Below the pieces are notes generated by a model, which searched no databases, was not told the DNA's origin, and worked only from the letters and a program-made list of their open reading frames with translations. From Candidatus Fraserbacteria bacterium (GTDB lineage: Bacteria; Bipolaricaulota; Bipolaricaulia; RBG-16-55-9; DRXL01), in NCBI GenBank assembly GCA_947085185.1, contig CAMTVK010000007.1:1-64000 (forward strand): DNA of 64,000 nt, read 5' to 3'. Shown in pieces: positions 3,709 through 52,345 of the stretch. A program made the translations under genes and the position numbers. Each line of letters starts with the position of its first letter. Positions within the stretch are counted from its first letter, which is position 1.

Positions 3709-4794
3709 ATGGTGACGACAGTGCAGACACGAGAGGACGCCGTCAAGCTCTTCCGAGAGATGGGGTTGATCGGTGCCGGCGGCGCCGGCTTCCCCACATA
3801 CTTTAAATATCTCACGCCCACGAAGATCCTCATCGTCAACGCCGAGGAGGGCGAACCCGGCTACGAAGCCGATAAAATCTTACTGATCAGCCAAGCCGAG
3901 GCCTTCGTCGAGGTCTTCGCGGCGCTGAAGAAGATCTTCGGCTTTGAGCAGATCCTCATCGGGGCCAAAGAGAAAGACAAGAAAATTTTGGAGCCCCTGC
4001 GAGAGAAGTACGGCTTCGACATTCGCTATACCCCGAGCATCTATGGCATGGGCGAGGAGAAATGGCTCACCAAGGCCGTCACAGGCATGGAAGTGCCCCC
4101 CGGCAAAATCCCCATCCACGTCGGGGTCACAGTCAACAACGTCGAAACGATTTATAATATGTACCGCGCGCTTTTCCAGGGCCAGCCCGTCACCGAAAAA
4201 TATTGTAACGTCTACGGCGAGGTCGCTAAACAGACCGTAGTCCTTGCTCCCGTCGGGACTTATCTCATAGATATCTTAGCACTGATCGGCGTGGACACGA
4301 CACGGTATAACAAATTAGCCGTGCTCGATGGCGGCCCCCTGATGGGCGATAGAGTCCACGTCGGCGAGCACGCCGTCACCAAGAAGACCAACGGCTTCTT
4401 AGTGATCGAAGCAGCCAAGTACGTCGCCGACCAAGTGAGCTTGCGGCCCCTGCCGGGCCAGCCCGCCCCAACTTGGGATGACACCCTCCCTGAAGCCATG
4501 AAAAAATTGGGACTCGAACGCTACTTGGATTGGCACCCCACGCCTGCAGATGTCTTAGACATTCGTGACAAAGTCACACGAGTCAAGATCTTTATGCACC
4601 AAGACGGCCCTAGGGGCAAGCCAAGCACCCCCATCGTCAAGGTCGGCGACCACGTGAAGATCGGCGACCCCATCGCCAAACCCCTCGACGGCCCCATCAC
4701 CGACTTCAATCTCTTGAGCGTAGCGCATCACGCTTCTATTGAGGGGGTCGTCACGGAAGTGACTGAGAAGTTCGTGCGAATCGAGAAGAAATAA
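3709..4794 (+). CDS. PduS/RnfC-like flavoprotein (Complex I 51K FMN domain + SLBB + C-terminal RnfC barrel) lacking the ferredoxin domain
   Basis: GAGGAGFPT, NAEEGEPG, NNVET and GGPLMG motifs; C-terminal VKVGDHVKIGD...HASIEGVV; only one Cys. Confidence 0.8.
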   Translation: MVTTVQTREDAVKLFREMGLIGAGGAGFPTYFKYLTPTKILIVNAEEGEPGYEADKILLISQAEAFVEVFAALKKIFGFEQILIGAKEKDKKILEPLREKYGFDIRYTPSIYGMGEEKWLTKAVTGMEVPPGKIPIHVGVTVNNVETIYNMYRALFQGQPVTEKYCNVYGEVAKQTVVLAPVGTYLIDILALIGVDTTRYNKLAVLDGGPLMGDRVHVGEHAVTKKTNGFLVIEAAKYVADQVSLRPLPGQPAPTWDDTLPEAMKKLGLERYLDWHPTPADVLDIRDKVTRVKIFMHQDGPRGKPSTPIVKVGDHVKIGDPIAKPLDGPITDFNLLSVAHHASIEGVVTEVTEKFVRIEKK

Positions 4795-5355: not shown

Positions 5356-5364
5356 CCAGGGTTT

Positions 5365-5393
5365 TTGCAACGCTCTTCTCTATGCCCTATAAT
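5365..5393 (+). promoter_or_regulatory. Sigma70 promoter of the lipA-pdh operon
   Basis: TTGCAA, 17 bp spacer, TATAAT. Confidence 0.75.
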
Positions 5394-5428: not shown

Positions 5429-6307
5429 ATCGCGGTCACGACACGTACCAAACCCGATTGGCTCAAGATCCGGCCACCGGCGGGCCAAAATTATATCGCT
5501 ATCAAAGAGACGCTGCGCCGATACGGCCTGCACACCGTCTGCGAAGAAGCCCACTGCCCCAATGTGCACGAGTGTTGGGGCGGCGGCACCGCGACACTTA
5601 TGCTGATGGGCGCCATCTGCACGCGAGGGTGCCGGTTCTGCGCCGTCACCAGCGGCCATCCTCAAGGCTTTTTGGACCCACTGGAGCCCTGGAAGGTCGC
5701 TCAGGTGCTCAGCGAGTGGGGCTTAGATTATGTCGTCTTAACGAGCGTCGCCCGAGATGATCTCCCCGATGGCGGCGCGGAGCATTTTGCCAAAACCATC
5801 CGCGCGATCAAACAGAAGACCCCCCAGATGCTCGTCGAGGTGCTCATCCCGGACTTTCGCGGCGATGGAGACGCCCTGAAAAGAGTCGTAGACGCCCGCC
5901 CTGACGTGATCGGACACAATATCGAGACCGTCGAGCGGCTCACCCCTAAGGTGCGCGACCGGAGAGCCACGTATCGGCAGTCTCTTGCCGTCTTAGAACA
6001 CGTAAAGAAGCTCGACCCCACTCGCTATACGAAGTCTTCTCTTATGGTGGGGCTTGGCGAAACAGACGAAGAGATCTTTCAAACGATGCGCGATCTGCGC
6101 GCCGTTGGCGTAGATATCCTCACGATTGGGCAGTATCTGCGCCCCAGCGCAAGGCACTTGGAAGTCGTCGAGTATGTGCACCCGGACAAATTTGCCCGTT
6201 GGAAAGAGCTTGGCGAAGCTCTGGGGTTTCGCTACGTCGCTTCCGGCCCGTTAGTCCGCAGCAGTTACCGTGCGGGCGAGTTCTTCATCAAGAGCCTACT
6301 GAGATAA
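5429..6307 (+). CDS. lipA: Lipoyl synthase (radical SAM); start codon uncertain, ATC 5429 proposed
   Basis: KPDWLK, the auxiliary cluster motif CEEAHCPNVHEC, CTRGCRFC and C-terminal RSSY. The frame is open from 5423, well upstream of the track's GTG at 5564. Confidence 0.92.
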   Translation: MAVTTRTKPDWLKIRPPAGQNYIAIKETLRRYGLHTVCEEAHCPNVHECWGGGTATLMLMGAICTRGCRFCAVTSGHPQGFLDPLEPWKVAQVLSEWGLDYVVLTSVARDDLPDGGAEHFAKTIRAIKQKTPQMLVEVLIPDFRGDGDALKRVVDARPDVIGHNIETVERLTPKVRDRRATYRQSLAVLEHVKKLDPTRYTKSSLMVGLGETDEEIFQTMRDLRAVGVDILTIGQYLRPSARHLEVVEYVHPDKFARWKELGEALGFRYVASGPLVRSSYRAGEFFIKSLLR

Positions 6308-6321
6308 CGTGGAGGGATACG

Positions 6322-7434
6322 ATGGCAGTCAAGGCAGCGATGGCTCAGCGTGAGCCGCTTGTGCCGTTCATCCAGATTCTCGATCCTGAGGGCATGGCCA
6401 ACCCTAACGATGTGGTGGAGCTTAGGCTCAAGCCCCACGATTTTAAGGCCCTCTATCGCTGGATGGTGCTGGCGCGCACGTTCGACGAGCGCGCTCTGGC
6501 ACTCCAACGGCAAGGGCGCTTGGGAACCTATGCCCCGTTGCTCGGCCAAGAGGCCGCTCAAGTGGGCAGCGCCTACGCCCTCAACCCCGAAGATTGGGTC
6601 TTCCCCAGCTACCGGGAGCACGCGGTGCTCGCCATGCGCGGGCAGAGCTGGGTGCAACTGTTGACGTATTGGGGCGGCAACGAAGAGGGCAACCGCATCC
6701 CTGAGGGCATCAGGAATTTTATGATCTGTGTCCCCATCGCCACGCAGATCCTCCATGCGACCGGGGCGGCCTGGGCCGCCAAGATCCGAGGCGAAAGATC
6801 TTGCGCTATCGCGTACTTTGGCGACGGAGCCACGTCCGAGGGCGACTTCCATGAGGGGCTGAACTTCGCGGGAGTCTTCAAAGCCCCTGTGGTCTTCTTC
6901 TGCCAAAATAATCAATATGCGATCTCGGTGCCACGCACTCGACAGACGGCTTCCCAGACCATCGCCCAGAAGGCGATCGCATATGGGTTTGAAGGGGTGC
7001 AAGTCGACGGCAACGATATCTTTGCCGTCTACAAAGCGACGCGCGATGCTCTCGAGAAGGCGCGCGCCGGCGGCGGCCCCACGCTCATCGAGGCCGTGAC
7101 GTATCGGCTCTCGCATCACACGACGGCCGACGACTGGACGCGCTATCGTCCCGCCGAAGAAGTCGAGATGTGGAAACAGAAAGATCCCCTCAAGAGACTG
7201 AGACTCTATCTCGAAAAACAAGGGCTGTGGAGTGAGCAAGAAGAAGCGAAGCTGCTCGAAGAGGCCAAAAACGAGATCGCGCAGGCCGTCGCCCAGTATG
7301 AGGCGCTTCCTAAGCGCGACGTCGAAGATATCTTCAAGTACATGTACGCCGAGATGCCCTGGAATCTCGAAGAACAGCTCCGCGAGCTCAAAGAATACTT
7401 AGCCCAGCACGGCGGCGACCTGCCCACAGAGTAA
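6322..7434 (+). CDS. pdhA: Pyruvate/branched-chain 2-oxoacid dehydrogenase E1 alpha
   Basis: TPP motif GDGATSEGDFHEGLN...QNN and YRLSHHTTADD; GGAGG SD before ATG 6322. Confidence 0.93.
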   Translation: MAVKAAMAQREPLVPFIQILDPEGMANPNDVVELRLKPHDFKALYRWMVLARTFDERALALQRQGRLGTYAPLLGQEAAQVGSAYALNPEDWVFPSYREHAVLAMRGQSWVQLLTYWGGNEEGNRIPEGIRNFMICVPIATQILHATGAAWAAKIRGERSCAIAYFGDGATSEGDFHEGLNFAGVFKAPVVFFCQNNQYAISVPRTRQTASQTIAQKAIAYGFEGVQVDGNDIFAVYKATRDALEKARAGGGPTLIEAVTYRLSHHTTADDWTRYRPAEEVEMWKQKDPLKRLRLYLEKQGLWSEQEEAKLLEEAKNEIAQAVAQYEALPKRDVEDIFKYMYAEMPWNLEEQLRELKEYLAQHGGDLPTE

Positions 7435-7439
7435 CTCTT

Positions 7440-8417
7440 ATGCCCCAGCTCAATATCGTCCAGGCGATCAACGATGCACTCAAGACCGAGATGCGCCGCG
7501 ACCCAACGGTCATCGTGATGGGCGAAGACGTTGGGGTCAACGGCGGGGTCTTCCGCGCCACAGAGAATCTTTATCAAGAATTCGGGCCAGATCGCTCCAT
7601 CGATACGCCGCTCTCAGAAGCAGGGATTGTGGGCACGGCGATCGGAATGGCGCTCAACGGCCTCAAGCCCGTGGCGGAGATCCAGTTCGACGGGTTTATG
7701 CCCCCGGCATTTGATCAGATCGTTTCGCACGCGGCGCGGATTCGTTGGCGCTCCCGCGGGCGATTCCACGTGCCCCTTGTGATTCGCGCCCCTTACGGCG
7801 GAGGCATCCGCGCTCCAGAGCTCCACTCCGAAAGCCCCGAAGCGTACTACGCTCACACCCCGGGCTTAAAAGTCGTCATCCCATCAAACCCCTACGATGC
7901 CAAAGGGCTGCTCATCGCAGCGATCCGAGACCCAGACCCCGTGATCTATCTGGAACCAAAGAGACTCTATCGCGCGTTCCGCGCCGAAGTCCCCGAAGAA
8001 GATTATGTCGTTCCCATTGGGAAGGCGCGCATCGCCCGTGAGGGCTCCGACGTCACGCTCATCGCGTGGGGCGCGATGATGCCCGTCGCGCTGAACGCCG
8101 CGGAGAGCATGATCGCCCAGAACGTCAGCGTCGAAGTGATCGATCTCAGAACGATCGTGCCGCTCGACGTCGAAACGGTCATAGAGTCCGTCAAGAAGAC
8201 GGGACGAGTCGTGATTGTGCACGAAGCGCCAAAGACGTGCGGGTTTGGCTCAGAACTGGCGGCGCTCGTCAACGATAAAGCGTTTGAGTATCTCCAAGCG
8301 CCGGTGGTGCGCGTGACCAGCCCCGATGCTGTCATCCCCCAAGGACGGATGGAAGACTACTATCTGCCCGATGTGGGGCGCTGCATCACCGGGATTGAGA
8401 AAGTGCTCAGCTACTGA
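7440..8417 (+). CDS. pdhB: 2-oxoacid dehydrogenase E1 beta, copy 1 (RAPELHSE loop)
   Basis: MGEDVG, DTPLSE, EIQF and the transketolase C-terminal domain. Confidence 0.93.
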   Translation: MPQLNIVQAINDALKTEMRRDPTVIVMGEDVGVNGGVFRATENLYQEFGPDRSIDTPLSEAGIVGTAIGMALNGLKPVAEIQFDGFMPPAFDQIVSHAARIRWRSRGRFHVPLVIRAPYGGGIRAPELHSESPEAYYAHTPGLKVVIPSNPYDAKGLLIAAIRDPDPVIYLEPKRLYRAFRAEVPEEDYVVPIGKARIAREGSDVTLIAWGAMMPVALNAAESMIAQNVSVEVIDLRTIVPLDVETVIESVKKTGRVVIVHEAPKTCGFGSELAALVNDKAFEYLQAPVVRVTSPDAVIPQGRMEDYYLPDVGRCITGIEKVLSY

Positions 8418-8431
8418 GAGAGTGACTGCCT

Positions 8432-9403
8432 ATGCCGCAGATGACGCTTGTGCAGGCGATCAACGATGCGCTCAAGACCGAGATGCGCCGCGACCCAACG
8501 GTCATCGTGATGGGCGAAGACGTTGGGGTCAACGGCGGGGTCTTCCGCGCCACTGAAGGGCTTTATCAAGAGTTTGGGCCCGATCGCGCAATTGATACGC
8601 CGTTGGCCGAATCGGGGATTGTGGGAACAGCAATTGGAATGGCGCTCAACGGCCTCAAGCCCGTGGCGGAGATCCAGTTCGACGGGTTTATGCCCCCGGC
8701 ATTTGATCAGATCGTTTCGCACGCGGCGCGGATTCGCTGGCGCTCCCGCGGGCGATTCCACGTGCCTATAGTCATCCGTGTGCCCTACGGCGGCGGGATT
8801 CGCGCGCTCGAGCACCACTCCGAAGCCCCGGAAGCGTATTATGTGCACACCCCGGGCTTAAAAGTCGTCATCCCGTCGAACCCCTACGATGCCAAAGGGC
8901 TGCTCATCGCGGCTATCAGAGACCCCGATCCCGTGATATTCTTTGAGCCCAAGCGCTTATATCGTGCATTTCGCCAAGAGGTCCCCGAAGGCGATTACAC
9001 GGTGCCCCTCGGCAAAGCGAGCATTGTGCGCGAGGGCTCCGACGTCACGGTGATCTCTTGGGGGGCGATGGTGCGCGTCTGTCTGCACGCGATAGAGTCT
9101 CTGGAGAACGTCAGCGTCGAGCTCATAGACCTGCGCACGCTCAAGCCCTTAGACCTCGAGACAGTGCTGAATTCTGTGGCCAAGACCGGACGCGCTGTGA
9201 TCGTCCAAGAGGCGCCGCGCACGTGCAGTTTGAGCTCAGAGCTGACCGCGCTCATCAACGAACGGCTGCTCTTACAGCTGCAAGCTCCAGTCGTGCGCGT
9301 GACCGGATACGACGTGCACATGCCCTATCTGACGATGGAGCAGTACTATCTGCCCGACGCTGGGCGCGTGAAGAAGGGCATCGAAAGGGTGTTGAGTTTC
9401 TGA
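8432..9403 (+). CDS. pdhB: 2-oxoacid dehydrogenase E1 beta, copy 2 (RALEHHSE loop)
   Basis: Full-length paralogue of the upstream gene with the same motifs. Confidence 0.93.
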   Translation: MPQMTLVQAINDALKTEMRRDPTVIVMGEDVGVNGGVFRATEGLYQEFGPDRAIDTPLAESGIVGTAIGMALNGLKPVAEIQFDGFMPPAFDQIVSHAARIRWRSRGRFHVPIVIRVPYGGGIRALEHHSEAPEAYYVHTPGLKVVIPSNPYDAKGLLIAAIRDPDPVIFFEPKRLYRAFRQEVPEGDYTVPLGKASIVREGSDVTVISWGAMVRVCLHAIESLENVSVELIDLRTLKPLDLETVLNSVAKTGRAVIVQEAPRTCSLSSELTALINERLLLQLQAPVVRVTGYDVHMPYLTMEQYYLPDAGRVKKGIERVLSF

Positions 9404-9486: not shown

Positions 9487-10923
9487 ATGGTCGTGGGCGA
9501 GATCGCTACGGGAACAGAAGTCCTAGTTGTCGGCGGCGGGCCAGGCGGCTACGTCGCCGCTATCAGAGCCGCACAGTTGGGCAAGGATGTGACGCTCGTC
9601 GAGAAAGACGAGCTTGGCGGAGTCTGTCTCAATGTCGGCTGCATCCCCTCAAAAGCGCTGATCTACGCAGCGTATCTGTACGAAAAGATCAAGCGCGCCG
9701 AACAGTTTGGCATCTCCGCCAAGGAAGTCCAGCTGGACTTTGCGCGTCTTCAAGCATGGAAGGAGAGCGTCATCAAGAAGCTCACAGGCGGCGTCAAGCA
9801 GCTGTGCGAGGGCAACGGCGTCAACATTATCAAGGGCAAGGCGACGTTTGTCGCGCCCAAGAAGTGCCTGGTCGAGAGCGAGCACGGCACCCAAGCGCTC
9901 GAGTTTAAAGATTGTATCATCGCCACGGGATCGGTCCCTATGAATATCCCCGGCTTTGAGAGAGACGGTGAGGTCGTCATAGATTCGACGGGCGCGCTGG
10001 CGCTGAAGAAACCTCCCCAGTCTCTTGTGGTGATCGGCGGGGGCTATATCGGGCTGGAGCTGGGGATGGCCTACGCCAAGTTCGGCAGCAAAGTGACAGT
10101 CGTCGAGATGCTCGATAGCCTGTTGCCGGGCACGGATCCTGAGTTGACGCGCCTTCTCGCTCGAAAAGTCAGAGAGCTGCAGATGGAAGTCCATCTCAAA
10201 TCTCAAGCAAAGGAGCTGAAGGCGGGCTCAGGCGGGGCTGAGCTCCTCGTGCAGACTCCCGACGGAGAGAAGAAGCTCGAAGCGGAAAAGATCTTAGTGA
10301 GCGTGGGGCGCAAGCCCCATACGCCCCCAGACTTGGGGCTGGACAAACTGGGCATACAGCTTGACTCCAAGGGTTTTGTGAAGACAGACTCTCAGAGGCG
10401 CACGAGCAACCCGCACGTCTACGCCATCGGCGATGTTGCTGGGCCACCGTTGCTGGCGCACAAAGCCTCTCATGAGGGGCTTGTCGCTGCCGAAGCGATC
10501 TGCGGGCTCAAGAGCGCTGCGGATTGGCGCACCGTGCCCGCGGTGATCTTCACTGACCCGGAGATCGCCTACGCGGGGATGAGCGAATCCGAAGCGCAGC
10601 AAGCAGGTTATAAGACTATAGCTGGGAAATTTCCGTTTGCCGCGCTGGGGCGAGCGCTGACGATGGGCGAGACAGAGGGCTTTATCAAAGTTATTGCGGA
10701 CGCCGAAACGAGGGTCGTGCTCGGTGTTCAGATTGTCGGCCCAGAAGCGTCGACGCTCATCAGCGAAGGGGTGCTGGCGATCGAGATGGGCGCGACACTA
10801 GAAGACCTGGCGCTCAGTATTCATCCCCATCCGACGCTCCCTGAGGGCCTGATGGAAGCGGCCGAAGCGGCGCTGGGGAAAGCCATTCACATTCTCACTC
10901 CCAAGAGAGAACACAAACTATGA
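9487..10923 (+). CDS. lpdA: Dihydrolipoamide dehydrogenase (E3)
   Basis: GGGPGG, redox-active [17 protein letters not shown] and HPHPTLPE. Confidence 0.96.
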
Positions 10924-12845
10924 TCGCCCCTTACGGCTCGTGGAAGTCGCCGATCACCGCAGAGCTGATCGCCCGTGGCGCCGTCCGGCTGATGCAAGTC
11001 GTGCCGGATGGGACGGATATCTATTGGCTGGAATCGCGCCCCGCCGAAGGCGGCCGCTATGTGATCGTCAGGCGCTCCGCAGACGGCACAATCTCTGATG
11101 TCACCCCCGCGCCGTTCTACGCCCGCACCACCGTGCACGAGTACGGCGGCGGGGATTTTACAGTCTCCAACGGGATCGTCTATTTCTCGAATTTTCGGGA
11201 TCAAAGGCTCTACGTGCAAAAGCCCGGCGCTGCCCCGCAGCCCATCACCCCAGAGGGAGCGTTTCGCTATGCCGACGCCGTGATAGACCCCCAAAGAGCG
11301 CGGCTCATCTGCGTCCGAGAAGATCACACTCTAGCAGGGCGCGAGCCCGTCAACGCTCTCGTGAGTGTAAGACTCGACGGCGACCCCGACGGCGGCACCG
11401 TGCTCGTCTGCGGAAATGACTTCTATGCGTCACCCAGGCTCAGTCCCGACGGCACACGCCTCGCCTGGCTGACGTGGAATCATCCCAACATGCCCTGGGA
11501 CGGCACAGAACTCTGGGTCGCTCAGATCGCCCAAGACGGCTCGCTCACCAACGCCCGCAAGATCGCAGGAGGCCCAACAGAGTCGATCTTTCAGCCCGAA
11601 TGGTCCCCAGATAATAGACTCTATTTTGTCTCCGACAGAACAGGCTGGTGGAACCTCTATCGCTGCAGAGACGGCCAGATCGAAGCGCTTACCCAGTTCG
11701 AAGCCGAGTTTGGCCAGCCCCAGTGGGGCTTTGGCATGTCCACGTATGCGTTCGTCTCCGGGCGAGAGATCATCTGCGCGTATGTGCAGCGGGGCATCTG
11801 GCATCTCGCCCTTCTGGACACAGCTACGAAAACACTCAAAGAGATCGAGACGCCCTATACAGAGATCAGCTACGTGCGGGCGCATTCAGCAGACTATGTC
11901 GTCTTTCGCGGTGGCTCGCCCACAGAGACGCTCGCGATCGTGCGCTTGGGTCTGCACACACAGAAGTGCGACGTCCTGCGCCGCTCGAGCGATCTCTCTC
12001 TAGATTCGGGATATATCTCGACGGCGCAGCCCATCGAGTTCCCTACAGAACAGAATCGGACGGCTCACGCGTTCTTCTATCCCCCAAAGAATAAAGACTT
12101 TCAAGCTCCCCCAGGCGAAAAGCCCCCGCTGTTAGTCTTCAGTCATGGTGGGCCCACCAGCGCCACGACGTCTACGCTCAAATTAGAGATTCAGTATTGG
12201 ACGAGCCGGGGCTTCGCCGTGGTGGACGTCAATTATGGGGGCAGCACCGGCTACGGACGAGCATACCGAGAGAGACTGAAGGGCCAGTGGGGCGTCGTGG
12301 ACGTTGATGACTGTATCAACGCTGCGAAATATTTAGCGCACCAAGGGCTGGTGGACGGGGAGAGATTGGCAATCCGTGGTGGCAGTGCCGGAGGGTACAC
12401 GACGCTCTGTGCCCTGACTTTTAGAAAATTTTTCAAGGCCGGAGCGAGCTACTTCGGCGTGAGCGATCTGGAAGCTCTCGACAGAGATACCCATAAGTTC
12501 GAATCTCGCTATAACCGAACGCTCATCGGGCCGTATCCGGAGCGACGCGATCTGTATTACGAGCGTTCGCCCATTCACTTTGCTGAAAAGATCTCGTGCC
12601 CGGTGATCTTCTTTCAAGGGCTTGAAGACCGAGTCGTTCCGCCCAATCAATCTGAAATGATGGTCGAGGCGCTGCGCAAGAATAAAATCCCCGTGGCGTA
12701 TATAACGTTTGCCGGCGAGCAGCATGGCTTTCGCCAGGCCGAGACTATCAAGCGCTCGCTTGAAGCTGAGCTGTATTTCTACTCAAAAGTCTTTGGGTTT
12801 GAGATCGCTGATCGAGTTGAGCCGGTGCCCATTGAAAATCTTTAG
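10920..12845 (+). CDS. S9 family peptidase (acylaminoacyl/dipeptidyl peptidase-like)
   Basis: [11 protein letters not shown]-terminus, HGGP, GGSAGG nucleophile, D in EDRVV and H in EQHGF. Confidence 0.92.
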
Positions 12846-44010: not shown

Positions 44011-45288
44011 TTATGCGTACAGTCCGCGAGCGCGCGCGGCCTCCGCAACACGTGATACCGCCGTCATGAACGCCGCAGTGCGCATGTCAACTTTCTCCTT
44101 GAGATGCATAGCGAGCACTCGCTTGAACGCCTCCGTCATGAAGAGCTTGAGACGCTCATCTACTCTCTCAGCGTCCCAGAAATACCGATAGCGATCTTGC
44201 ACCCACTCAAAGTACGAGACGGTCACCCCGCCGGAGTTCGCCAAGATATCGGGGATCACGAAAATCCCGCGCTCGTGCAAGATCGCATCGGCCTCTTGGG
44301 TCGTGGGGCCGTTGGCCAGCTCGCAGATGACCTTCGCTTTGATCTTTGGAGCATTGTGCTCATGGAGCTGGTCTTCTAATGCCGCTGGCGCTAAGATATC
44401 ACACGGGAGCTCCAACAGCTCTGCGTTGGTGATCTGGTCTGCCCCTTTGAAACCGACGACCGTGCCCGTCTCCTTCTTGAAGGCGAGCACAGCTTTGTAG
44501 TCCAAGCCCTTGCTGTTGTAGATGCCGCCCGTGGAGTCGCTGACGGCGATGATCTTGGCCCCGGCATCCTGCATGAATTGAGCATAGTACGAGCCGGCAT
44601 TGCCAAAGCCCTGAATCGCGACGGCGGCGCCCTCCAACTTCATCTTGAGGTGATCGAGTGCTTCGAGGGTACAGAAGAAGCCGCCGCGGGCTGTCGCCGT
44701 CTCGCGTCCCACTGAGCCCCCTAACAACAACGGCTTGCCCGTCACCAGACCCGGCATGAATTCCCCATGATGGTGCATGCTAATTGTATCAACGATCCAG
44801 GCCATCTCCCGCGAGCCTGTATAGACGTCGGGTGCGGGGATGTCCATATCCGGCCCGATGATCACAGAGATCTCGGATGCATAGCGTCGCGTGAGCCGCT
44901 CGATCTCCCCAATGGACATCTCCTTGGGGTTGCACCGGACGCCCCCCTTGGCCCCGCTGAAGGGCAGCCCCGCGACCGCGCACTTCCAGTTCATCAGGAT
45001 CGCGAGCGCCTCGACTTCTTCTAACGTCGTGTTGGGGTGATAGCGAATGCCGCCCTTGCCCGGCCCCAATACGGGATGACACTGCACCCGATAGCCCTCA
45101 AAATTGATCGTCCGGCCATCGTCCATGCGCACCGGAAAGTTGACGATCAGCTTGCGCTTGGGATACCGCAACAGCTCGACTAAGCTGTCTTCCAGCTTGA
45201 GCTTTCGCGCAGCCACGTCGAAGAAGTACCGCGCGGTCTTGAGCATCTTCAGCTCGCCTTCCCGTTTGACATCTGCTGTGGTGGCCAT
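44011..45288 (-). CDS. gdhA: Glutamate dehydrogenase (Glu/Leu/Phe/Val family)
   Basis: KGGIRY, GAKGG, DIPAPD, QGFGNAG and GGVTVSYFEW. Confidence 0.94.
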   Translation of the reverse strand: MATTADVKREGELKMLKTARYFFDVAARKLKLEDSLVELLRYPKRKLIVNFPVRMDDGRTINFEGYRVQCHPVLGPGKGGIRYHPNTTLEEVEALAILMNWKCAVAGLPFSGAKGGVRCNPKEMSIGEIERLTRRYASEISVIIGPDMDIPAPDVYTGSREMAWIVDTISMHHHGEFMPGLVTGKPLLLGGSVGRETATARGGFFCTLEALDHLKMKLEGAAVAIQGFGNAGSYYAQFMQDAGAKIIAVSDSTGGIYNSKGLDYKAVLAFKKETGTVVGFKGADQITNAELLELPCDILAPAALEDQLHEHNAPKIKAKVICELANGPTTQEADAILHERGIFVIPDILANSGGVTVSYFEWVQDRYRYFWDAERVDERLKLFMTEAFKRVLAMHLKEKVDMRTAAFMTAVSRVAEAARARGLYA

Positions 45289-45291
45289 AGA

Positions 45292-45837
45292 TCAGACCTC
45301 CTTTGTCTGAGTCTTCTGAACCAACTGACGACCGATCTCCAAAGCGCGCAGGTTCTGCTCACGGAACTTGGCGGGAGTGCGCCTCTCTACAGCCTTGTGC
45401 AAACTCTCCCAAGAGACGAGCTCCGCCAAGGCGTTCAGCGCTCCCAGAGCTACAACATTGGCTACCACCTTATTGCCCACATGCTCAACTGCCATGCGCA
45501 CCAACGGAAGCTTATGAATCGCCGTAAGAGATGGGGCCTGCACTTGTGCGGAGTCTACGACAATCAGACCGTGATCGTTCATGGCGGGGAAGTATCTGTC
45601 GAACGCATCTTGCGAGAGACAGAGCAAGATATCGGGTTTGGTCACTTGGGGATAGGCGATCTTCTCAGAAGAGATAATCACTTCGGCTTTGCTGGCTCCC
45701 AGGCGCGCCTCGGGGCCGTAGCTCTGCGCCACCGCGACGTTCTTGCCGTCGCGCATCGCCGCTTCGGCCAAGATAATCCCAGCTAAGACCAGCCCCTGCC
45801 CCCCAGACCCACTCAATTGAATCTGCTTAGTCGCCAT
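45292..45837 (-). CDS. korC: 2-oxoacid:ferredoxin oxidoreductase gamma subunit (Kor-type)
   Basis: GSGGQG and QSYGPEAR.G.S motifs. Confidence 0.88.
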   Translation of the reverse strand: MATKQIQLSGSGGQGLVLAGIILAEAAMRDGKNVAVAQSYGPEARLGASKAEVIISSEKIAYPQVTKPDILLCLSQDAFDRYFPAMNDHGLIVVDSAQVQAPSLTAIHKLPLVRMAVEHVGNKVVANVVALGALNALAELVSWESLHKAVERRTPAKFREQNLRALEIGRQLVQKTQTKEV

Positions 45838-46663
45838 CCATCTTCACCCGCTGGCCCTGCATCTGTGCTATCAGCCCGTAATAGCTCTCCACAAACTCCG
45901 GACGCTCCTGTCGATGCAGTTCCCCAATGACTATCTTCTCAGCGCGCTCCTCCTCACTGAGCTGCTCCCACTCTTCGATGGGCACAGTTTGCTCTTTGAT
46001 ATTGTGCAGCATCTCATAGGGATCGCGCAAGTCGTTCAGCCGCCCATAATATGTCGGGCAGTGCGTGAGCACCTCGATCACGGAGAAGCCCTTATGGGCG
46101 ATCCCGCGCTTGATCAAGTGCACCATATCACGGAAGTCGAAGCTGGTGGTGCGCGCGACGTAGGTCGCTCCGGCGGCGATGGCGAGCCGAGCGATATCGA
46201 AGGGGTGTTCGAGATTTCCATAGGGGCTGGTCATGCTCTTCTTCTGACGGGGAGTCGTGGGCGCGACCTGCCCGCCCGTCTGGCCGTAAATCGAATTGTT
46301 ATAGATAATCGCTGTTAAATCTAAATTCCGCCGGCACGCGTGAATGAAGTGATTCCCCCCAATGCCCACGGCGTCGCCGTCGCCGAGGGCGAGCACGACT
46401 GTTAAGTCTGGGCGCACCAGCTTGAGCCCCGTGGCAAAGACGAGCGCCCGCCCGTGCGTCGTGTGCATCGCGTCGGTATTGAAGAGAAAAGCTGTGCGCC
46501 CCGAGCACCCGATCCCACCGACGACCGCCGTTTGGTTGGGATCGAGCTTGAGCTCGGCCATGGCGCACGCCAACGCGTGCGTGATCATGCCGTGCCCACA
46601 CCCGGGACACCAGACATGGGGCAACTTCTCTACTCTCAAATATTCTAGAAACTCATGCGCCAT
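45827..46663 (-). CDS. korB: 2-oxoacid:ferredoxin oxidoreductase beta subunit (Kor-type)
   Basis: WCPGCG, GIGCS, GDGD and CPT motifs. Confidence 0.92.
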   Translation of the reverse strand: MAHEFLEYLRVEKLPHVWCPGCGHGMITHALACAMAELKLDPNQTAVVGGIGCSGRTAFLFNTDAMHTTHGRALVFATGLKLVRPDLTVVLALGDGDAVGIGGNHFIHACRRNLDLTAIIYNNSIYGQTGGQVAPTTPRQKKSMTSPYGNLEHPFDIARLAIAAGATYVARTTSFDFRDMVHLIKRGIAHKGFSVIEVLTHCPTYYGRLNDLRDPYEMLHNIKEQTVPIEEWEQLSEEERAEKIVIGELHRQERPEFVESYYGLIAQMQGQRVKMDGD

Positions 46664-47792
46664 AGCGTCCCCCCTTGCTACAGTGTATGCGATCGGACAC
46701 GCGCTGACATATCTGTTCTGGAGTGATCAAGTATCCGTCAACGCGCCCCAGGTGTTCCACGGGGGCTTGGCCGCCCACGGCGCGCTCGACCTCTCGCACG
46801 AGTTGCCCTAAATTGAGCTCCGGGACCAGCACATACCGAGCACGCTCTGTACACGAACGCACGATCTTGTCTGGAAAGGGCCACAGCGTCTTCAGATCGA
46901 GCCAGCCGACGGCCACCCCTTCGGCTCGCAGAGCACGCACAGCTTCTTCTACCGCTCGGCTGGTGATGCCATAGCTGACGATCACGACCTCCGCGTCGTC
47001 CACATAATAAGCGTGATAGAGCGCGAGTTCTTCGGCGCGGCTCTCGATCTTCGTTAAAATCCTCTGAAGCTGTTCGGCAGCTTTCTTCCCCTGCGCGGGA
47101 AACCCGAGCTCATCGTGAGCCATCCCCGTGACCATAAGGCGCCCGCCCTCGCCAAAAGCGCAGAACGTCTCATCGGAGAACGGCTTGAAATCTTCAAGGC
47201 GCTCAGGGCGCTGTCGCGAGATGACCTCGAGTTCTCCGGGCTCAGGGAGAATAACATTCTCGCGCAGGTGCGCCAAGACTTCGTCGAGGAGCAGGATGAC
47301 CGGCACGCGATATCTTTCCGCGAGATTAAAAGCTCGGACGGTCATCTCGAAGACCTCGCGCACCCAGGAAGCCGTCAGCACGATGACAGGGTGATCGCCG
47401 TGGGTGCCCCAGCGGGCTTGCATGACATCGCCTTGGGAGACCTTGGTGGGCTGGCCGGTGCTCGGCCCGCCACGCTGCGCATCTACGATGACGCACGGAG
47501 TCTCTGTAATCGCGGCGTACCCAATAGACTCCTGCATGAGCGAAAATCCGGGCCCGCTCGTCGCCGTCATCGCTTTCACACCGCCCCACGACGCCCCGAT
47601 GACCGCCGAAATAGATGCGATCTCGTCTTCCATCTGAATACAGACGCCGCCGACCTTGGGCAGCTCGCGCGCTAAGTATTCCATGATCTCGCTGCTGGGC
47701 GTGATGGGGTACCCCGCAAAGAACCGACAGCCCGCGTAGATCGCCCCGCGCGCACACGCCTCGTTCCCCTGGACAAGCTCTAGCTCTCTCAT
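46653..47792 (-). CDS. korA: 2-oxoacid:ferredoxin oxidoreductase alpha subunit (Kor-type)
   Basis: GYPITP, EDEI, TSGPG and RGGPSTG motifs. Confidence 0.92.
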   Translation of the reverse strand: MRELELVQGNEACARGAIYAGCRFFAGYPITPSSEIMEYLARELPKVGGVCIQMEDEIASISAVIGASWGGVKAMTATSGPGFSLMQESIGYAAITETPCVIVDAQRGGPSTGQPTKVSQGDVMQARWGTHGDHPVIVLTASWVREVFEMTVRAFNLAERYRVPVILLLDEVLAHLRENVILPEPGELEVISRQRPERLEDFKPFSDETFCAFGEGGRLMVTGMAHDELGFPAQGKKAAEQLQRILTKIESRAEELALYHAYYVDDAEVVIVSYGITSRAVEEAVRALRAEGVAVGWLDLKTLWPFPDKIVRSCTERARYVLVPELNLGQLVREVERAVGGQAPVEHLGRVDGYLITPEQICQRVSDRIHCSKGGRYGA

Positions 47793-48022
47793 ACAAGCGC
47801 CGGCTGAGAGACCCTGTTCTTATGGACCGAGATAGCAAAATCAGGACACCGCTGCTCGCAGATGCCGCAGAAGACACAGCGAGCGATCTCCTTGGCCTCG
47901 ACCTTCCCCTCGCCGTTGAGCACCAATACGCCCATGGGACAGCTCTGAACACACACTTCGCATCCCTTGCACCGACGCGGCTCGATGACTAAGAAAAAGC
48001 CCCCTTGCTCGTAACGTATCAT
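47789..48022 (-). CDS. korD: 2x[4Fe-4S] delta subunit / ferredoxin (Kor-type)
   Basis: CKGCEVCVQSCP and CVFCGICEQRCP; ATGA-coupled start at 48022. Confidence 0.88.
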   Translation of the reverse strand: MIRYEQGGFFLVIEPRRCKGCEVCVQSCPMGVLVLNGEGKVEAKEIARCVFCGICEQRCPDFAISVHKNRVSQPALV

Positions 48023-48951
48023 AGAGATCTGCTCCTCTGCAGCAATCTCTCCCAGTCTTCGTCCACTTGCTGTTGGATCTGCATCACGAGCGCCTCGTTT
48101 CCTGGCGCCAGCAGATGGGCAAAGCGCTTCTGCGGGCGCAGCCACTCCGTGATGGGGAGCTTCTCCTCGGGAATAGAGTTTATGTGCCAGCGCCCGTCCA
48201 TGATCTCATAGAGGGGCCAGTAGCACGTCTCCACGGCTAGACGAGCGATCTTGACGCTCGCCTCGGGCGGGTGGCCCCAGCCGCGTGGGCAGGTCGAGAG
48301 CACATTGAGAAACGCTGGGCCATCTACAGAAGCAGCCTTGCGCGCCTTCAGCGCGAGATCGTACCAATCGCTGATGGACGCTTGCGCCACATACGGGATG
48401 TGGTGCGCCGCGACAATCTCTGTTAAGTCTTTGCGGCGCTGGGGCTTGCCAAAGCTCTTCTCGCCCACCGGGACGGTGCTCGTGTGCGCGGCAAACGGCG
48501 TCGCCCCGGAACGCTGATTGCCTGTGTTCATATACGCTTCGTTGTCGTAGCAGACGTATATGAATCTATGGCCACGCTCGAGCGCTCCAGAGAGCGCCTG
48601 CAGCCCGATATCGTAGGTGCCGCCGTCGCCCCCAAACGCCACAAACCGAATCTCTTTGGTGAGCTGGCCTCGCCGTCGTAAGACCCTATAGGCCGTCTCA
48701 ACCCCGCTGGCGACGGCCGCGGCGTTCTCGAACGCCACATGGATCCACGGGACGTTCCAGGCTGTCGTGGGATAGCGCGTCGTGGCCACCTCAAGACAGC
48801 CCGTCGCGTTTATAACCACGACGGGCTCTTCAATGGCGTTGAGGATCGTGCGTACGCAGATGGGGACCCCACAGCCGGCACAGAGGGCATGAGCCCCGGT
48901 GAAGCGTTTGTGGAGCTCCTCGCGTTGTGCGAGTTCTTTCGTATTGGGCAT
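48019..48951 (-). CDS. porB: Pyruvate:ferredoxin oxidoreductase beta subunit
   Basis: CAGCG, TGCLE, GGDGG and NEAYMNTG.Q; GTG 48960 is an alternative start. Confidence 0.92.
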   Translation of the reverse strand: MPNTKELAQREELHKRFTGAHALCAGCGVPICVRTILNAIEEPVVVINATGCLEVATTRYPTTAWNVPWIHVAFENAAAVASGVETAYRVLRRRGQLTKEIRFVAFGGDGGTYDIGLQALSGALERGHRFIYVCYDNEAYMNTGNQRSGATPFAAHTSTVPVGEKSFGKPQRRKDLTEIVAAHHIPYVAQASISDWYDLALKARKAASVDGPAFLNVLSTCPRGWGHPPEASVKIARLAVETCYWPLYEIMDGRWHINSIPEEKLPITEWLRPQKRFAHLLAPGNEALVMQIQQQVDEDWERLLQRSRSL

Positions 48952-48956
48952 AGAGA

Positions 48957-50150
48957 TCACTCCCGCAGGCCAAGATAGCGCAACACCGTCGGGTCGAGGT
49001 CGTTCTGCAAGTCCGTCACGACGGACGTTAAGAGCTCTGGGGGCGTGTCGCGCCCGCCCAGCCCATAGATATAGTTATAGAGCGCGGGTCTTTTGTGGAG
49101 ATAGCGTCCGAGCGCCGCAGCGATTTCTAAATAGAGCGGCCCCCAACTGCCCAGTGAGATCGCGCGATCTAAGACGGCCACGGCGCGCTTGCCCGCAAGC
49201 GCCTGCGCGATCTCGCGGGCGGGGAAGGGGCGAAAGACCCAAGGCTTCAACAGCCCGACTTTGATCCCCTTGCGCCGCAGCCGATCTATGGCGACTTTGG
49301 CCGTGCCCGCCGTCGAACTCAAGATCACGAGCGCGTACTCCGCATCGCTGAGCTTATACTCTTCAAAGAAGCCCTCATAACGACGGCCTGAAATCTCCGC
49401 AAACCCTCTCTGAAGCTCAAGCCAGACAGTCCGTGCTGCTTCAAGGGCATCAACTTGTTGGCGCTTGAGCTCAAAATAATAGTCGGGCAGGGCAAACGGC
49501 CCTTGGGTCGTGGGATGCTCTACGTCCAAGAGAGGATAGAGCGGTTTGTATTCGCCCACGAATGCTTTGACGGCTTCATCGGGAAGAAGAGCTACGGGCT
49601 CGGCCGAGTGCGTGATCGTGAATCCATCTTGCATCACCATCACCGGGGCTAAGACCCTACGGTCCTCCGCGAGCCGCTGGGCGACGATCATGAAGTCATA
49701 GGCTTCTTGGGCGTTTTCGGCAAAGAGCTGCACACACCCGGCATCGCGGGCCATCATGCTGTCGGAGTGATCGCAATGAATATTAATGGGGCCGGAGAGC
49801 GCCCGGCTCCCTACGGCAATGACGATGGGGCAGCGCATGGACGCTGCGATATAGACGATCTCGAGCATCAGCGCCAACCCTTGGGAGCTCGTAGCGGTCA
49901 TCACGCGCGCCCCAGCGCACGACGCGCCCACAGCCGCGCTCATGGCGCTATGCTCGCTCTCCACGTTGATGATCTCTGTATCGCACTGGCCGTCGGCGAC
50001 GAACTGTGCGAATGTCTCGATAATAGGGGTCTGGGGCGTGATGGGATAGACGGGCACGACATCGGGATGGATCTGGCGCATCGCGTGTGCCGCAGCTTCC
50101 GCTCCTGTCAAGAGAAGCAGTTCTGTTGCTGATGTCATGGCCGCGCCCAT
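48957..50150 (-). CDS. porA: Pyruvate:ferredoxin oxidoreductase alpha subunit
   Basis: YPITPQT, ESEHSA, TSSQGL and GLGGRD. Confidence 0.92.
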   Translation of the reverse strand: MGAAMTSATELLLLTGAEAAAHAMRQIHPDVVPVYPITPQTPIIETFAQFVADGQCDTEIINVESEHSAMSAAVGASCAGARVMTATSSQGLALMLEIVYIAASMRCPIVIAVGSRALSGPINIHCDHSDSMMARDAGCVQLFAENAQEAYDFMIVAQRLAEDRRVLAPVMVMQDGFTITHSAEPVALLPDEAVKAFVGEYKPLYPLLDVEHPTTQGPFALPDYYFELKRQQVDALEAARTVWLELQRGFAEISGRRYEGFFEEYKLSDAEYALVILSSTAGTAKVAIDRLRRKGIKVGLLKPWVFRPFPAREIAQALAGKRAVAVLDRAISLGSWGPLYLEIAAALGRYLHKRPALYNYIYGLGGRDTPPELLTSVVTDLQNDLDPTVLRYLGLRE

Positions 50151-50156
50151 ACTTCT

Positions 50157-50438
50157 TCACCCGGCTTCTTCTTCGATCATCGTGATCGCTCCGGTGGGAC
50201 AGACTTGCGAGCAGATCCCGCACCCCTTACAGTGATCGTAGCTGATCCCACGCATCTGCAGGCGCTCGACCAAGATCGTGGCTTCCGGGCAGTGGACCCA
50301 GCAGAGCAGACAATTGACGCAGAGCCTCTCGGTGAAGATGGGCTTTTTGCCGGCTCGCCACCCTCCGGTCTGTACGAGCTGAGGCGTCGCACCGCCAGGG
50401 ATGACCCCGCCAATGGGGAGCTCTTGATAGCGCCTCAT
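50157..50438 (-). CDS. porD: Pyruvate:ferredoxin oxidoreductase delta subunit
   Basis: TGGWR, CVNCLLCWVHCP and CKGCGICSQVCP. Confidence 0.92.
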   Translation of the reverse strand: MRRYQELPIGGVIPGGATPQLVQTGGWRAGKKPIFTERLCVNCLLCWVHCPEATILVERLQMRGISYDHCKGCGICSQVCPTGAITMIEEEAG

Positions 50439-50998
50439 AGCGATGCCTCACTGTCGTCAAGCGCAGCAAAGCCTGCGCGCAGCGCCGCGATGTTGGTCGC
50501 CAGCGCCTTCTCGCCGAACATGTGAGCAAGCTCTCTCTCTAAATCTTCAAGGACGAGATCGCCGAGCACGCGCACCAGCGCCCCCACCATCACCACGTTG
50601 GAGAAGCGCACGCCCACCGAACGCGCGAGCGCGTCCGCATCGAGCGTGATGATCTTCCCTGAAAACCCCGTGAGCGCCCGGATCTCTTGTGGGGTCTTTG
50701 GGCTGTTCACCAAGAGAACCCCGTGGCGCTTGAGCCCTTCGGTGACCCGGGCTTCTTTTGCTGTCAGCAATGTCGGGTCGAGCACCACGACGATGTCTGG
50801 TTCGTAGACGCTGCAGTGCAAGCGGATCTCTTTGGTATCGAGGCGATTGAACGCTTTGACGGGTGCGCCGCTGCGCTCTGGGCCGTATTCAGGGAAAGCC
50901 TGGACGAAGCGCCCGCGGCGCAGCGCCGCTCCAGCTAAGAGCTGGGAGACGGTCTTAGCTCCTTGGCCGCCGCGCCCGTGCCAGCGAATCTCTATCAC
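50435..50998 (-). CDS. porC: Pyruvate:ferredoxin oxidoreductase gamma subunit
   Basis: EIRWHGRGGQG and PEYGPERSGAP. Confidence 0.92.
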   Translation of the reverse strand: MIEIRWHGRGGQGAKTVSQLLAGAALRRGRFVQAFPEYGPERSGAPVKAFNRLDTKEIRLHCSVYEPDIVVVLDPTLLTAKEARVTEGLKRHGVLLVNSPKTPQEIRALTGFSGKIITLDADALARSVGVRFSNVVMVGALVRVLGDLVLEDLERELAHMFGEKALATNIAALRAGFAALDDSEASL

Positions 50999-51004
50999 CG
51001 CGCG

Positions 51005-52345
51005 TCACCCCTTGGTGAGAAACTTCGCGATCCCTTGCGCCGCGAGCTTCCCGTCTCTCACGGCTTCGACGACGGTAGCGCCGCCGTTGATGCAATCGCC
51101 GCCGGCAAAGTATTTCTCTCGGTTCGTCTGAAAATTCTCGTGCACTTTCACAAGGCCGCCCTCGGTCTCCAGGCCCAACGCGTTAAAGAGCTCGACCCGC
51201 TTCTCTTGCCCGATCGCTTTGATAACCGTGTCGACTTCTAAAGTGAACTCGGTGCCGGGGACGGGCTGCGGGGCTGGGCGACCGGACTTGTCTGGCGTTC
51301 CCAACTTCATATGAATACATTCGATCTGTCTGACCTTGCCGTCGCCAAGGAGGCGCACAGGGGCCGTCAAGAAGTAGAAGTGGACGCCCTCCTTGCGCGC
51401 CGCTTTGACTTCATACTTGAACGCAGGCATCTCACGCTCGGTGCGCCGATAGAGCACCATCACGTCGGTCGCGCCCAGGCGCACCGCCTCGCGCGCCACG
51501 TCAATCGCCGTGTTGCCCCCTCCGATGACCGCGACCGTCGGGCCGATCTTAGGAGGATGCCCCTCCTTGATGCGCTCAATAAACTCAAGCGCATCCCAGA
51601 CCCCCAAGAGCTCTTCCCCTGGGATGCGCGCCTTCGCGTCCGCTCCCAAGCCGACCCCAAGAAAGATCGCATGGTGGCGACGCTCCAACTCCTCACGAGA
51701 GATGTCTTTGCCAACAGTCACGCCGTAGTGGAGCTTAACCCCCAAGCGTTCGATCATAGCGACTTCAGCGGGCAGTGGGTCTTTCATCTGTTTGTAGGGA
51801 GCGATGGCAGACGTGACCAAGCCCCCAGGTTCATGCCGACTCTCGTAGACCACGACTTCATAGCCGAGTTTGGCCAGCTCTGCCGCGCAGGCCAACCCCG
51901 CCGGCCCCGCCCCAACGACCCCGATGCTCCAGGGCTTCCACGACGGGCGCGCAAAGAAATTGAGCTGCCGCGAGAGCGCCACGTCCGTCGCATAGCGCTG
52001 CAGACGCCCGATGGAGACAGCGCGTCGTCCTTCTTTGGTGAGTACGCAGGCACCCTCACAGAGCTCCTCGACAGGACAGACGCGCGCGCAGCTGCCTCCT
52101 AAGATATTGGCCTCAAAGATAAGCCGAGCGGCCTCCTCAGGACGCCCCTCGCGGATCGCTCGGATGAACTGGGGGACGGGGACGCGCGCTGGACAAGCCG
52201 CAACGCACGGAGCAGGCGCATACGGACCTCCACACTCCAAACAACGATCAGATTCGATCTGAGCGGTGGCGTCATCGAGAGGCGGATGGATCTCTTGATA
52301 GATCGGAGGTAGTGGCCCTTGTCGTGAGCCCAATAAGACGCTCAT
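51005..52345 (-). CDS. GltD/NfnB(SudA)/PreT-like Fe-S flavoprotein NAD(P)H oxidoreductase
   Basis: RCLEC...PCVAACP, CARVCP...CEGAC, GAGPAG, GGGNTAID, YRR and AGGD. Confidence 0.9.
   Translation of the reverse strand: MSVLLGSRQGPLPPIYQEIHPPLDDATAQIESDRCLECGGPYAPAPCVAACPARVPVPQFIRAIREGRPEEAARLIFEANILGGSCARVCPVEELCEGACVLTKEGRRAVSIGRLQRYATDVALSRQLNFFARPSWKPWSIGVVGAGPAGLACAAELAKLGYEVVVYESRHEPGGLVTSAIAPYKQMKDPLPAEVAMIERLGVKLHYGVTVGKDISREELERRHHAIFLGVGLGADAKARIPGEELLGVWDALEFIERIKEGHPPKIGPTVAVIGGGNTAIDVAREAVRLGATDVMVLYRRTEREMPAFKYEVKAARKEGVHFYFLTAPVRLLGDGKVRQIECIHMKLGTPDKSGRPAPQPVPGTEFTLEVDTVIKAIGQEKRVELFNALGLETEGGLVKVHENFQTNREKYFAGGDCINGGATVVEAVRDGKLAAQGIAKFLTKG

What the first reader, a model, noticed from the sequence alone, without database searches (positions are those of the whole stretch)
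6322..9403. One E1-alpha with two E1-beta paralogues carrying different active-site loops
Seen: two intact tandem beta genes that differ in the loop holding the catalytic His, IRAPELHSE (about 7806-7832) versus IRALEHHSE (about 8798-8824), and in their C-terminal halves. Known: this loop lines the substrate pocket; PELHS is typical of Bacillus-type PDH, while EHHS occurs in actinobacterial and archaeal branched-chain-type enzymes. Inference: a modular complex in which swapping or mixing beta subunits on a shared alpha, E2 and E3 changes 2-oxoacid specificity.
Basis: partly seen in the sequence, partly recalled or inferred. Interest (0 to 1): 0.7.

Follow-up and report, generated by a model that had tools for sequence, protein, structure and literature searches.

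The report
One E1-alpha, two conserved beta partners
A hot-spring-type uncultured bacterium encodes its 2-oxoacid dehydrogenase with one alpha subunit gene and two different, side-by-side beta subunit genes, a pairing kept in nearly all readable genomes of four related families, and the two betas likely build a mixed enzyme whose two active sites would differ, though probably not as a simple pyruvate versus branched-chain switch.

Summary
Observation confirmed. One E1-alpha (the only one found in this 97%-complete genome) is followed by two intact betas, 257/325 identical, with the quoted loops at the quoted coordinates. The pair is old: adjacent on one contig in 25 of 31 genomes of four Ca. 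Bipolaricaulota families, both copies at dN/dS about 0.05, and not seen outside this lineage in two motif-limited scans. Gene conversion homogenises the N-terminal halves, while a few sites stay different: 126 (Pro/Leu, in the catalytic-His nest), helix 274-284 beside the E2-docking residue, and loop 298-302. Beta2 is the invariant, ancestral-like copy; beta1 is variable and never found alone. Best reading (0.4, inferred): both betas use the one alpha and co-assemble into an asymmetric alpha2-beta1-beta2 E1 with two unlike sites on a shared E2/E3. Main rival (0.3): two separate homo-beta isoenzymes. No assembly or activity was shown. New variant of a known kind; the scan's earlier notes held no such finding.

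The parts
5429..6307 (+). lipA, lipoyl synthase; start probably a non-canonical ATC at 5429 (first ATG/GTG/TTG is only at 5564)
   Evidence: TIGR00510 over cut-off; N-terminal homology and ATC at the same place in 9 genomes of family f1; start codon inferred
6322..7434 (+). E1-alpha (alpha1), PDH_E1_alph_x type; the only E1-alpha found in the genome
   Evidence: TIGR03181 510.9 bits, cut-off 411; best solved match Geobacillus E1p alpha 1w85; single copy
7440..8417 (+). E1-beta1, the variable copy (Pro126, Asp279, Phe282, no Tyr301)
7806..7832 (+). beta1 catalytic-His loop IRAPELHSE; Pro126 at 7815-7817, His129 at 7824-7826
   Evidence: equals P125beta/H128beta of Geobacillus E1 by alignment and PMC2663715
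8259..8291 (+). beta1 residues 274-284, patch kept different from beta2, just before the position that carries the E2-docking acidic residue in human E1
   Evidence: position mapped and PMC5554223
8331..8348 (+). beta1 residues 298-303, second C-terminal patch kept different from beta2
8432..9403 (+). E1-beta2, the conserved, ancestral-like copy (ALEHHS invariant in 27 of 27; Leu283 27 of 27; Tyr301 25 of 27, beta1 numbering)
8798..8824 (+). beta2 catalytic-His loop IRALEHHSE; Leu126 at 8807-8809, His129 at 8816-8818
9245..9277 (+). beta2 residues 272-282, counterpart of the 274-284 patch
7479..7746 (+). N-terminal part of beta1 holding two tracts (83 and 101 nt; about codons 14-41 and 69-102) identical at DNA level to beta2: gene conversion
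9487..10923 (+). E3, dihydrolipoyl dehydrogenase
   Evidence: TIGR01350 over cut-off
10920..12845 (+). S9-family peptidase inside the cluster; in G012 and G016 a third beta (beta3) lies between this gene and E2, absent here
   Evidence: PF00326
12909..14168 (+). E2 acyltransferase with one lipoyl domain and a peripheral subunit-binding domain (about residues 116-158); the only E2 found

Best explanation
One alpha gene is followed by two intact beta genes that selection has kept different at a few sites, and both betas likely pair with that alpha and co-assemble, which would give mixed alpha2-beta1-beta2 E1 tetramers with two unlike active sites docked on the single E2/E3. Shown: one alpha, one E2, one E3; both betas intact, under purifying selection and with Glu60/His129; N-terminal halves homogenised by gene conversion; differences retained at 126, 274-284 and 298-302; beta2 invariant in the His loop and alone in one genome, beta1 variable and never alone. 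Inferred: shared N-terminal halves keep alpha-beta and beta-beta contacts compatible, so alpha-beta1 and alpha-beta2 protomers mix; beta2 supplies the housekeeping site; beta1 supplies a site of altered shape (126 with 301-302) that would widen or shift the 2-oxoacid range or fix the half-of-sites asymmetry; the 274-284 patch would orient the single E2 binding domain on the beta-beta two-fold. Which substrates each site prefers is not determined; a clean pyruvate versus branched-chain split is unlikely.
For: Single alpha and E2. Pair adjacent in 25 of 31 genomes of four families, lost in 1 readable genome, whereas the separate alpha2/beta3 enzyme is not found in 16 of the 31. dN/dS 0.052 and 0.050 over 78 within-genus pairs each. 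Same-genome paralogues are closer than orthologues at synonymous sites in codons 10-120 (pS 0.44 versus 0.60-0.61) but not in 201-325 (0.65 versus 0.53-0.61); between families, only segments 121-135 and 256-290 show orthologues at least as alike as same-genome paralogues for both copies. Position 126 differs in 25 of 26 genomes, 282 and 283 in 24, 284 in 25, 301 and 302 in 24. P125beta is a nest residue of catalytic H128beta, and one E2 binding domain sits asymmetrically on the E1 two-fold (PMC2663715). Position 286, next to the patch, aligns with human beta D289/D319, the E2 salt-bridge residue. C-terminal halves stay distinct in all 23 contig-paired sets, including the 4 with identical His loops. 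The single beta of G028 is beta2-like but carries beta1-type Asp279, Lys280 and Leu301.
Against: No direct evidence of assembly, expression or activity. Each patch type also occurs in betas that have their own alpha and presumably homodimerise (beta3 resembles beta1 at 281 and 283; the outgroup single beta resembles beta2), so the patches do not prove complementarity. G028 has one beta only, so a mixed tetramer is not universally obligatory. Neither beta1 nor beta2 is monophyletic in trees (5-6 changes; weak support), so repeated duplication is not excluded. Long identical tracts in G011 (355 nt) and G025 (536 nt) may be assembly collapse rather than conversion. That 298-302 lines the active site is inferred only from its covariation with 126.
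Confidence: 0.4

Rival explanations
1. Two separate isoenzymes, alpha2-beta1(2) and alpha2-beta2(2), with orthogonal beta-beta surfaces and different 2-oxoacid ranges (for example 2-oxobutyrate, aromatic or methylthio 2-oxoacids versus pyruvate), sharing E2 and E3.
For: Pro/Leu126 kept against flanking gene conversion; 126 covaries with 301-302 also in unrelated betas that have their own alpha; beta1 pocket residues 125, 128, 130 vary while beta2's do not; the 274-284 differences could prevent mixing; hybrid complexes with several E1s on one E2 are known (PMC8146983 passages).
Against: 4 of 23 pairs have identical His loops yet persist; much of the pocket comes from the shared alpha (established knowledge; PMC2663715); an accessory specificity would be expected to be lost more often, as alpha2/beta3 was.
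Confidence: 0.3
2. One reading: beta1 makes a pyruvate dehydrogenase and beta2 a branched-chain dehydrogenase.
For: In this genome beta1 has PELHS like Geobacillus E1p, and this genome lacks alpha2/beta3, leaving room for another branched-chain route; all 9 Leu128 copies are in genomes where alpha2/beta3 was not found.
Against: Leu128 in only 9 of 26 beta1; pair coexists with canonical alpha2/beta3 in up to 14 genomes; beta1-like APEHHSES occurs in a Methylocella leucine-catabolism cluster and in haloarchaeal betas; both betas match Geobacillus E1p about equally (396 and 401 bits); the genome has 5 matches to 2-oxoacid:ferredoxin oxidoreductase alpha.
Confidence: 0.1
3. Beta1 alters or abolishes docking on E2, giving a free or differently recruited E1, as in crucian carp where a beta paralogue loses the E2 salt bridge and E1 acts as a pyruvate decarboxylase.
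For: The strongest conserved C-terminal differences (282-284) lie next to the docking position 286; 11 of 26 beta1 have Lys/Arg at 286, 0 of 27 beta2; precedent PMC5554223.
Against: Beta3, which lies next to E2 and presumably docks, also has Lys/Arg at 286 in 9 of 14, and in this genome both betas have Gln; no dedicated second alpha.
Confidence: 0.08
4. Redundant duplicates kept for dosage, with neutral divergence.
For: Frequent gene conversion shows N-terminal halves are interchangeable; G028 has one beta.
Against: With one alpha gene there is no need for doubled beta; type-specific residues are kept across four families; tandem copies that recombine should be lost often.
Confidence: 0.05

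Closest known systems
Geobacillus stearothermophilus pyruvate dehydrogenase E1p alpha2beta2 (PDB 1w85, 3duf; PMC2663715)
   Same: Best solved match of alpha1, beta1 and beta2; same catalytic Glu, His and nest positions; E2 with a binding domain of the same kind
   Different: One beta gene, symmetric beta2 dimer; here two beta paralogues for one alpha; substrate here unknown
Branched-chain 2-oxoacid dehydrogenase E1b of Thermus thermophilus (1um9) and human (1dtw)
   Same: Same fold and chemistry; best solved matches of the relatives' alpha2 and beta3
   Different: alpha1/beta1/beta2 of this window are a different subfamily (TIGR03181-type alpha); the E1b-type genes are absent here
Haloarchaeal 2-oxoacid dehydrogenase E1 (OadhAB1 type)
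   Same: Closest named betas in the plasmid collection, about 60% identical, with the beta1-like APEHHSES loop
   Different: One beta per alpha in the records read; Haloferax volcanii OadhAB1 has isoleucine only indirectly assigned (PMC8305020 table passage); I did not read the H. volcanii sequence itself
Crucian carp E1beta1/E1beta2 paralogues (PMC5554223)
   Same: Two beta paralogues that differ near the E2-docking site
   Different: Carp also has a dedicated alpha paralogue and loses a specific salt bridge; here one alpha, and position 286 does not separate the betas in this genome
Hybrid complexes with several E1s on one E2 (human OGDH/DHTKD1; Corynebacterium AceE/OdhA; PMC8146983 passages)
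   Same: One E2/E3 serving more than one E1; this holds in relatives with alpha2/beta3
   Different: There whole E1 enzymes differ; here only the beta chain is duplicated

Membership tests
Heterotetrameric (alpha/beta) E1 of 2-oxoacid dehydrogenase complexes | alpha with E1_dh domain and GDG...NN ThDP motif | tested here: met
   PF00676 318.5 bits, TIGR03181 over cut-off, motif
Heterotetrameric (alpha/beta) E1 of 2-oxoacid dehydrogenase complexes | beta with activating Glu (E59beta) and catalytic His (H128beta) | tested here: met
   Glu60 and His129 in both copies and in all orthologues read
Heterotetrameric (alpha/beta) E1 of 2-oxoacid dehydrogenase complexes | E2 with lipoyl and binding domains, E3 and lipoylation genes available | tested here: met
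Heterotetrameric (alpha/beta) E1 of 2-oxoacid dehydrogenase complexes | two identical beta chains from one gene | tested here: inconclusive
   two beta genes for one alpha; composition of the tetramer not determined
Pyruvate dehydrogenase, Bacillus type | pyruvate as preferred substrate | not testable with these tools
   alpha passes TIGR03181 but this names annotation, not tested function
Pyruvate dehydrogenase, Bacillus type | PELHS loop as conserved mark of beta1 | tested here: not met
   Leu128 in 9 of 26 beta1
Canonical branched-chain E1b (Thermus/human type) | alpha and beta closest to solved E1b, with the GG-x-(Y/H)HSQS loop and the alpha GRQMP insertion | tested here: not met
   met by the relatives' alpha2/beta3, not by alpha1/beta1/beta2
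Carp-type E1-derived pyruvate decarboxylase | paralogue-specific loss of the acidic E2-docking residue | tested here: not met
   Gln286 in both betas here; beta3 also often basic

The most novel reading that the evidence does not exclude
An obligate or strongly preferred alpha2-beta1-beta2 E1: a naturally asymmetric thiamine enzyme in which the two communicating active sites and the two halves of the E2 dock are encoded by different genes, kept for the whole history of a bacterial order by gene conversion plus selection on three small patches. It would be a ready-made tool to test the half-of-sites / proton-wire model one site at a time.
Probability: 0.25. Interest if true: 0.78.

Novelty: new variant of a known kind. 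Interest (0 to 1): 0.56.

Why it matters
Textbook E1 is a symmetric alpha2beta2 enzyme whose half-of-sites behaviour and one-sided E2 docking arise from identical chains (PMC2663715). A lineage that keeps two beta genes for one alpha offers either a natural asymmetric E1, which would let each active site be mutated and measured separately, or proof that the beta chain alone can retune 2-oxoacid specificity, useful for annotating the large alpha_x subfamily whose substrates cannot be read from sequence. It also shows that many relatives run up to three betas and two alphas on one E2.

Tried and rejected
Complex prediction of alpha, E2 binding domain, beta1 and beta2 gave no verdict (score not specific against a control) and no contacts; not used as evidence. 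No RNA holder listed. Beta-beta fusion proteins: none convincing among the best 120 longer hits (two hits flagged by a motif count, P0136 and P0147, were not examined further; P0037 and P0072 hold partial internal repeats). Tandem betas outside the lineage: pattern scan of 185,579 genomes gave 12 loci, all read as this lineage by title or gene order (3 have non-committal or Thermotogae titles); metagenome scan gave 42 loci, of which 2 were true tandem betas, both with this lineage's gene order and 70-74% identity, 2 were a distant alpha-beta fusion followed by a beta, 1 looked misassembled; both patterns are motif- and codon-limited, so this is 'not found', not absence. Idea that beta1 descends from the second alpha-beta pair of the outgroup G035: rejected, no consistent closeness. 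Carp-like loss of the docking residue: not supported. A second hidden alpha for beta2 in this genome: not found. Full maximum-likelihood tree did not finish; quick tree used. Two papers on the E1-E2 interface were not held, so the beta-beta and docking residues other than 286 are not mapped from a source. Paper searches (listings and abstract starts only) showed no report of one alpha with two tandem betas; subscription journals are not covered and no supplements were read. Earlier scan notes: none on this arrangement.
Full report
Observation. The window carries lipA, E1-alpha (6322-7434), beta1 (7440-8417), beta2 (8432-9403), E3, an S9 peptidase and E2 on the + strand. Both loops are at the stated coordinates. 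The betas are 257/325 identical, with most differences after residue 175. The genome (96.8% complete) shows one E1-alpha and one E2, so both betas depend on the same partners. Record titles of matching loci place the lineage in Ca. Bipolaricaulota.

Distribution. Of 61 genomes searched, 30 had a beta match; of 184 in the phylum, 32. Among the 31 genomes of families f1, f2, f3 and f5 (own included) the two betas are adjacent on one contig in 25, split over contig ends in 2 (G015, G027), single in 1 (G028, alpha-beta-E3 contiguous) and unreadable in 3. The outgroup G035 has single betas, each with its own alpha. A motif pattern spanning a beta-beta junction found 12 loci in 185,579 genomes, all of this lineage by title or order; a second pattern found 42 metagenome loci, only 2 of them true tandem betas, again of this type. 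Both patterns are narrow, so restriction to this order is likely, not shown.

A third beta and second alpha. Fourteen of the 31 genomes also have beta3, directly before E2, and a stand-alone alpha2; G017 has alpha2 only; 16, including this genome, have neither. Their best solved matches are Thermus and human branched-chain E1. In G012 and G016 beta3 lies between the peptidase and E2, where this window has nothing. So the beta1/beta2 pair mostly coexists with a canonical branched-chain E1 on what is usually one close E2, which undercuts the idea that beta2 exists to supply branched-chain activity.

Selection and gene conversion. Within the genus dN/dS is 0.052 for beta1 and 0.050 for beta2 (78 pairs each; dS is large, so these are rough). 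Same-genome paralogues share identical DNA tracts (83 and 101 nt here) and have lower synonymous divergence than orthologues in codons 10-120 (0.44 versus 0.60-0.61), not in 201-325. The 355- and 536-nt tracts of G011 and G025 could be assembly collapse. Trees group copies partly by family (5-6 label changes; weak support), as expected under conversion; repeated duplication is not excluded, though the fixed gene order and type-specific residues favour one old event.

What stays different. In 26 genomes with both copies, positions differing in at least 85% are 126, 225, 227, 248, 249, 252, 274, 282-284, 298, 301, 302; several of these (225-252) are simply variable. Beta2 has ALEHHS in 27 of 27, Glu279 and Leu283 in 27 of 27, Tyr301 in 25 of 27. 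Beta1 has Pro126 in 25 of 26 but varies at 125, 128 (His 16, Leu 9, Tyr 1) and 130. Both keep Glu60, Gln82, Phe83, Phe86, His129. The G028 single beta and the outgroup's operon beta are beta2-like; beta1 was never found alone.

Structural meaning. In Geobacillus E1, H128beta sits in a nest of P125, T124, F85, F82, and one E2 binding domain lies asymmetrically on the two-fold axis; the enzyme shows half-of-sites reactivity (PMC2663715: introduction, first parts of results and discussion read). By alignment P125beta is our 126. Human beta D289/D319, the E2 salt bridge (PMC5554223 passages), aligns to our 286, so patch 274-284 adjoins the dock; that it also forms beta-beta contacts is recalled, not checked. 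Pro126 tends to go with Leu/Gln301 and Leu126 with Tyr301, in this lineage and in unrelated betas, suggesting, by inference only, that both shape one wall of the active site.

Leu128 is a local state of part of one genus. Five of six named relatives read from plasmids (three haloarchaea, Methylocella, Caballeronia) have the beta1-like (R/H)APEHHSES loop; the Methylocella genes follow methylcrotonyl-CoA carboxylase and HMG-CoA lyase. Recalled and untested: Mollicutes pyruvate dehydrogenase betas carry an ALEHH loop like beta2. The loop therefore does not sort pyruvate from branched-chain enzymes. The genome also has five 2-oxoacid:ferredoxin oxidoreductase alpha matches, two haem-copper oxidase subunit I matches and five acyl-CoA dehydrogenase matches, so context does not fix the substrate.

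Mechanism. Best reading (0.4): both betas are made from one tightly packed operon (5 and 14 nt gaps), bind the one alpha, and, because their N-terminal halves are kept alike, mix into alpha2-beta1-beta2 with two unlike sites and a one-sided E2 dock; beta2 is the housekeeping copy. Rivals: separate isoenzymes (0.3), the pyruvate/branched-chain split (0.1), altered E2 docking (0.08), redundancy (0.05). Against the best reading: each patch type occurs in ordinary homodimeric betas, G028 has one beta, and nothing was shown about assembly.

Novelty. All parts belong to known families; hybrid complexes sharing E2 are known (PMC8146983 passages) and carp has beta paralogues. I found no report of one alpha with two conserved tandem betas in nine paper searches (listings only, subscription journals not covered) or in the scan's notes. 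Verdict: real, conserved, new variant of a known kind; interest 0.56.

Noticed in passing
window 5429-5431: lipA probably starts at an ATC codon behind a GGAGTGAGG ribosome-binding-like motif; ATC is at the same place in 9 family-f1 genomes, while others have ATG/GTG/TTG there. A promoter-like site (10 of 12) lies at 5364-5393.
   Followed up: partly
L036:1777-2395 (G014) and L050:2820-3206 (G002): A small 78-aa gene plus a retroviral-like aspartyl protease gene (PF13975) is inserted between beta1 and beta2 in G014; a shorter, apparently broken version sits at the same place in G002.
   Followed up: partly
L051, L053-L065 and L073-L087: In 14 relatives a canonical branched-chain E1 is split: beta3 before E2, alpha2 alone elsewhere; both are not found in most of this genus and in G028, G030, G032.
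   Followed up: yes
window 3709-4794: Stand-alone RnfC/PrdC-like flavoprotein (PF01512, RnfC_N; below NCBIfam cut-offs) close upstream of lipA in many relatives; could be an NADH outlet for the complex.
   Followed up: no
window 44011-52345: Cluster of glutamate dehydrogenase, a KorAB-like and a PorAB-like 2-oxoacid:ferredoxin oxidoreductase and a GltD-like flavoprotein.
   Followed up: partly
L046:7925-9053 (G031); L089 (G034): alpha1 is in three frames in G031 and has one in-frame TAG in G034; sequencing error or decay not resolved.
   Followed up: no
L114, L121: Metagenome loci where a distant alpha-beta fusion gene is followed by a second, different-subfamily beta (and E2 in L121).
   Followed up: no
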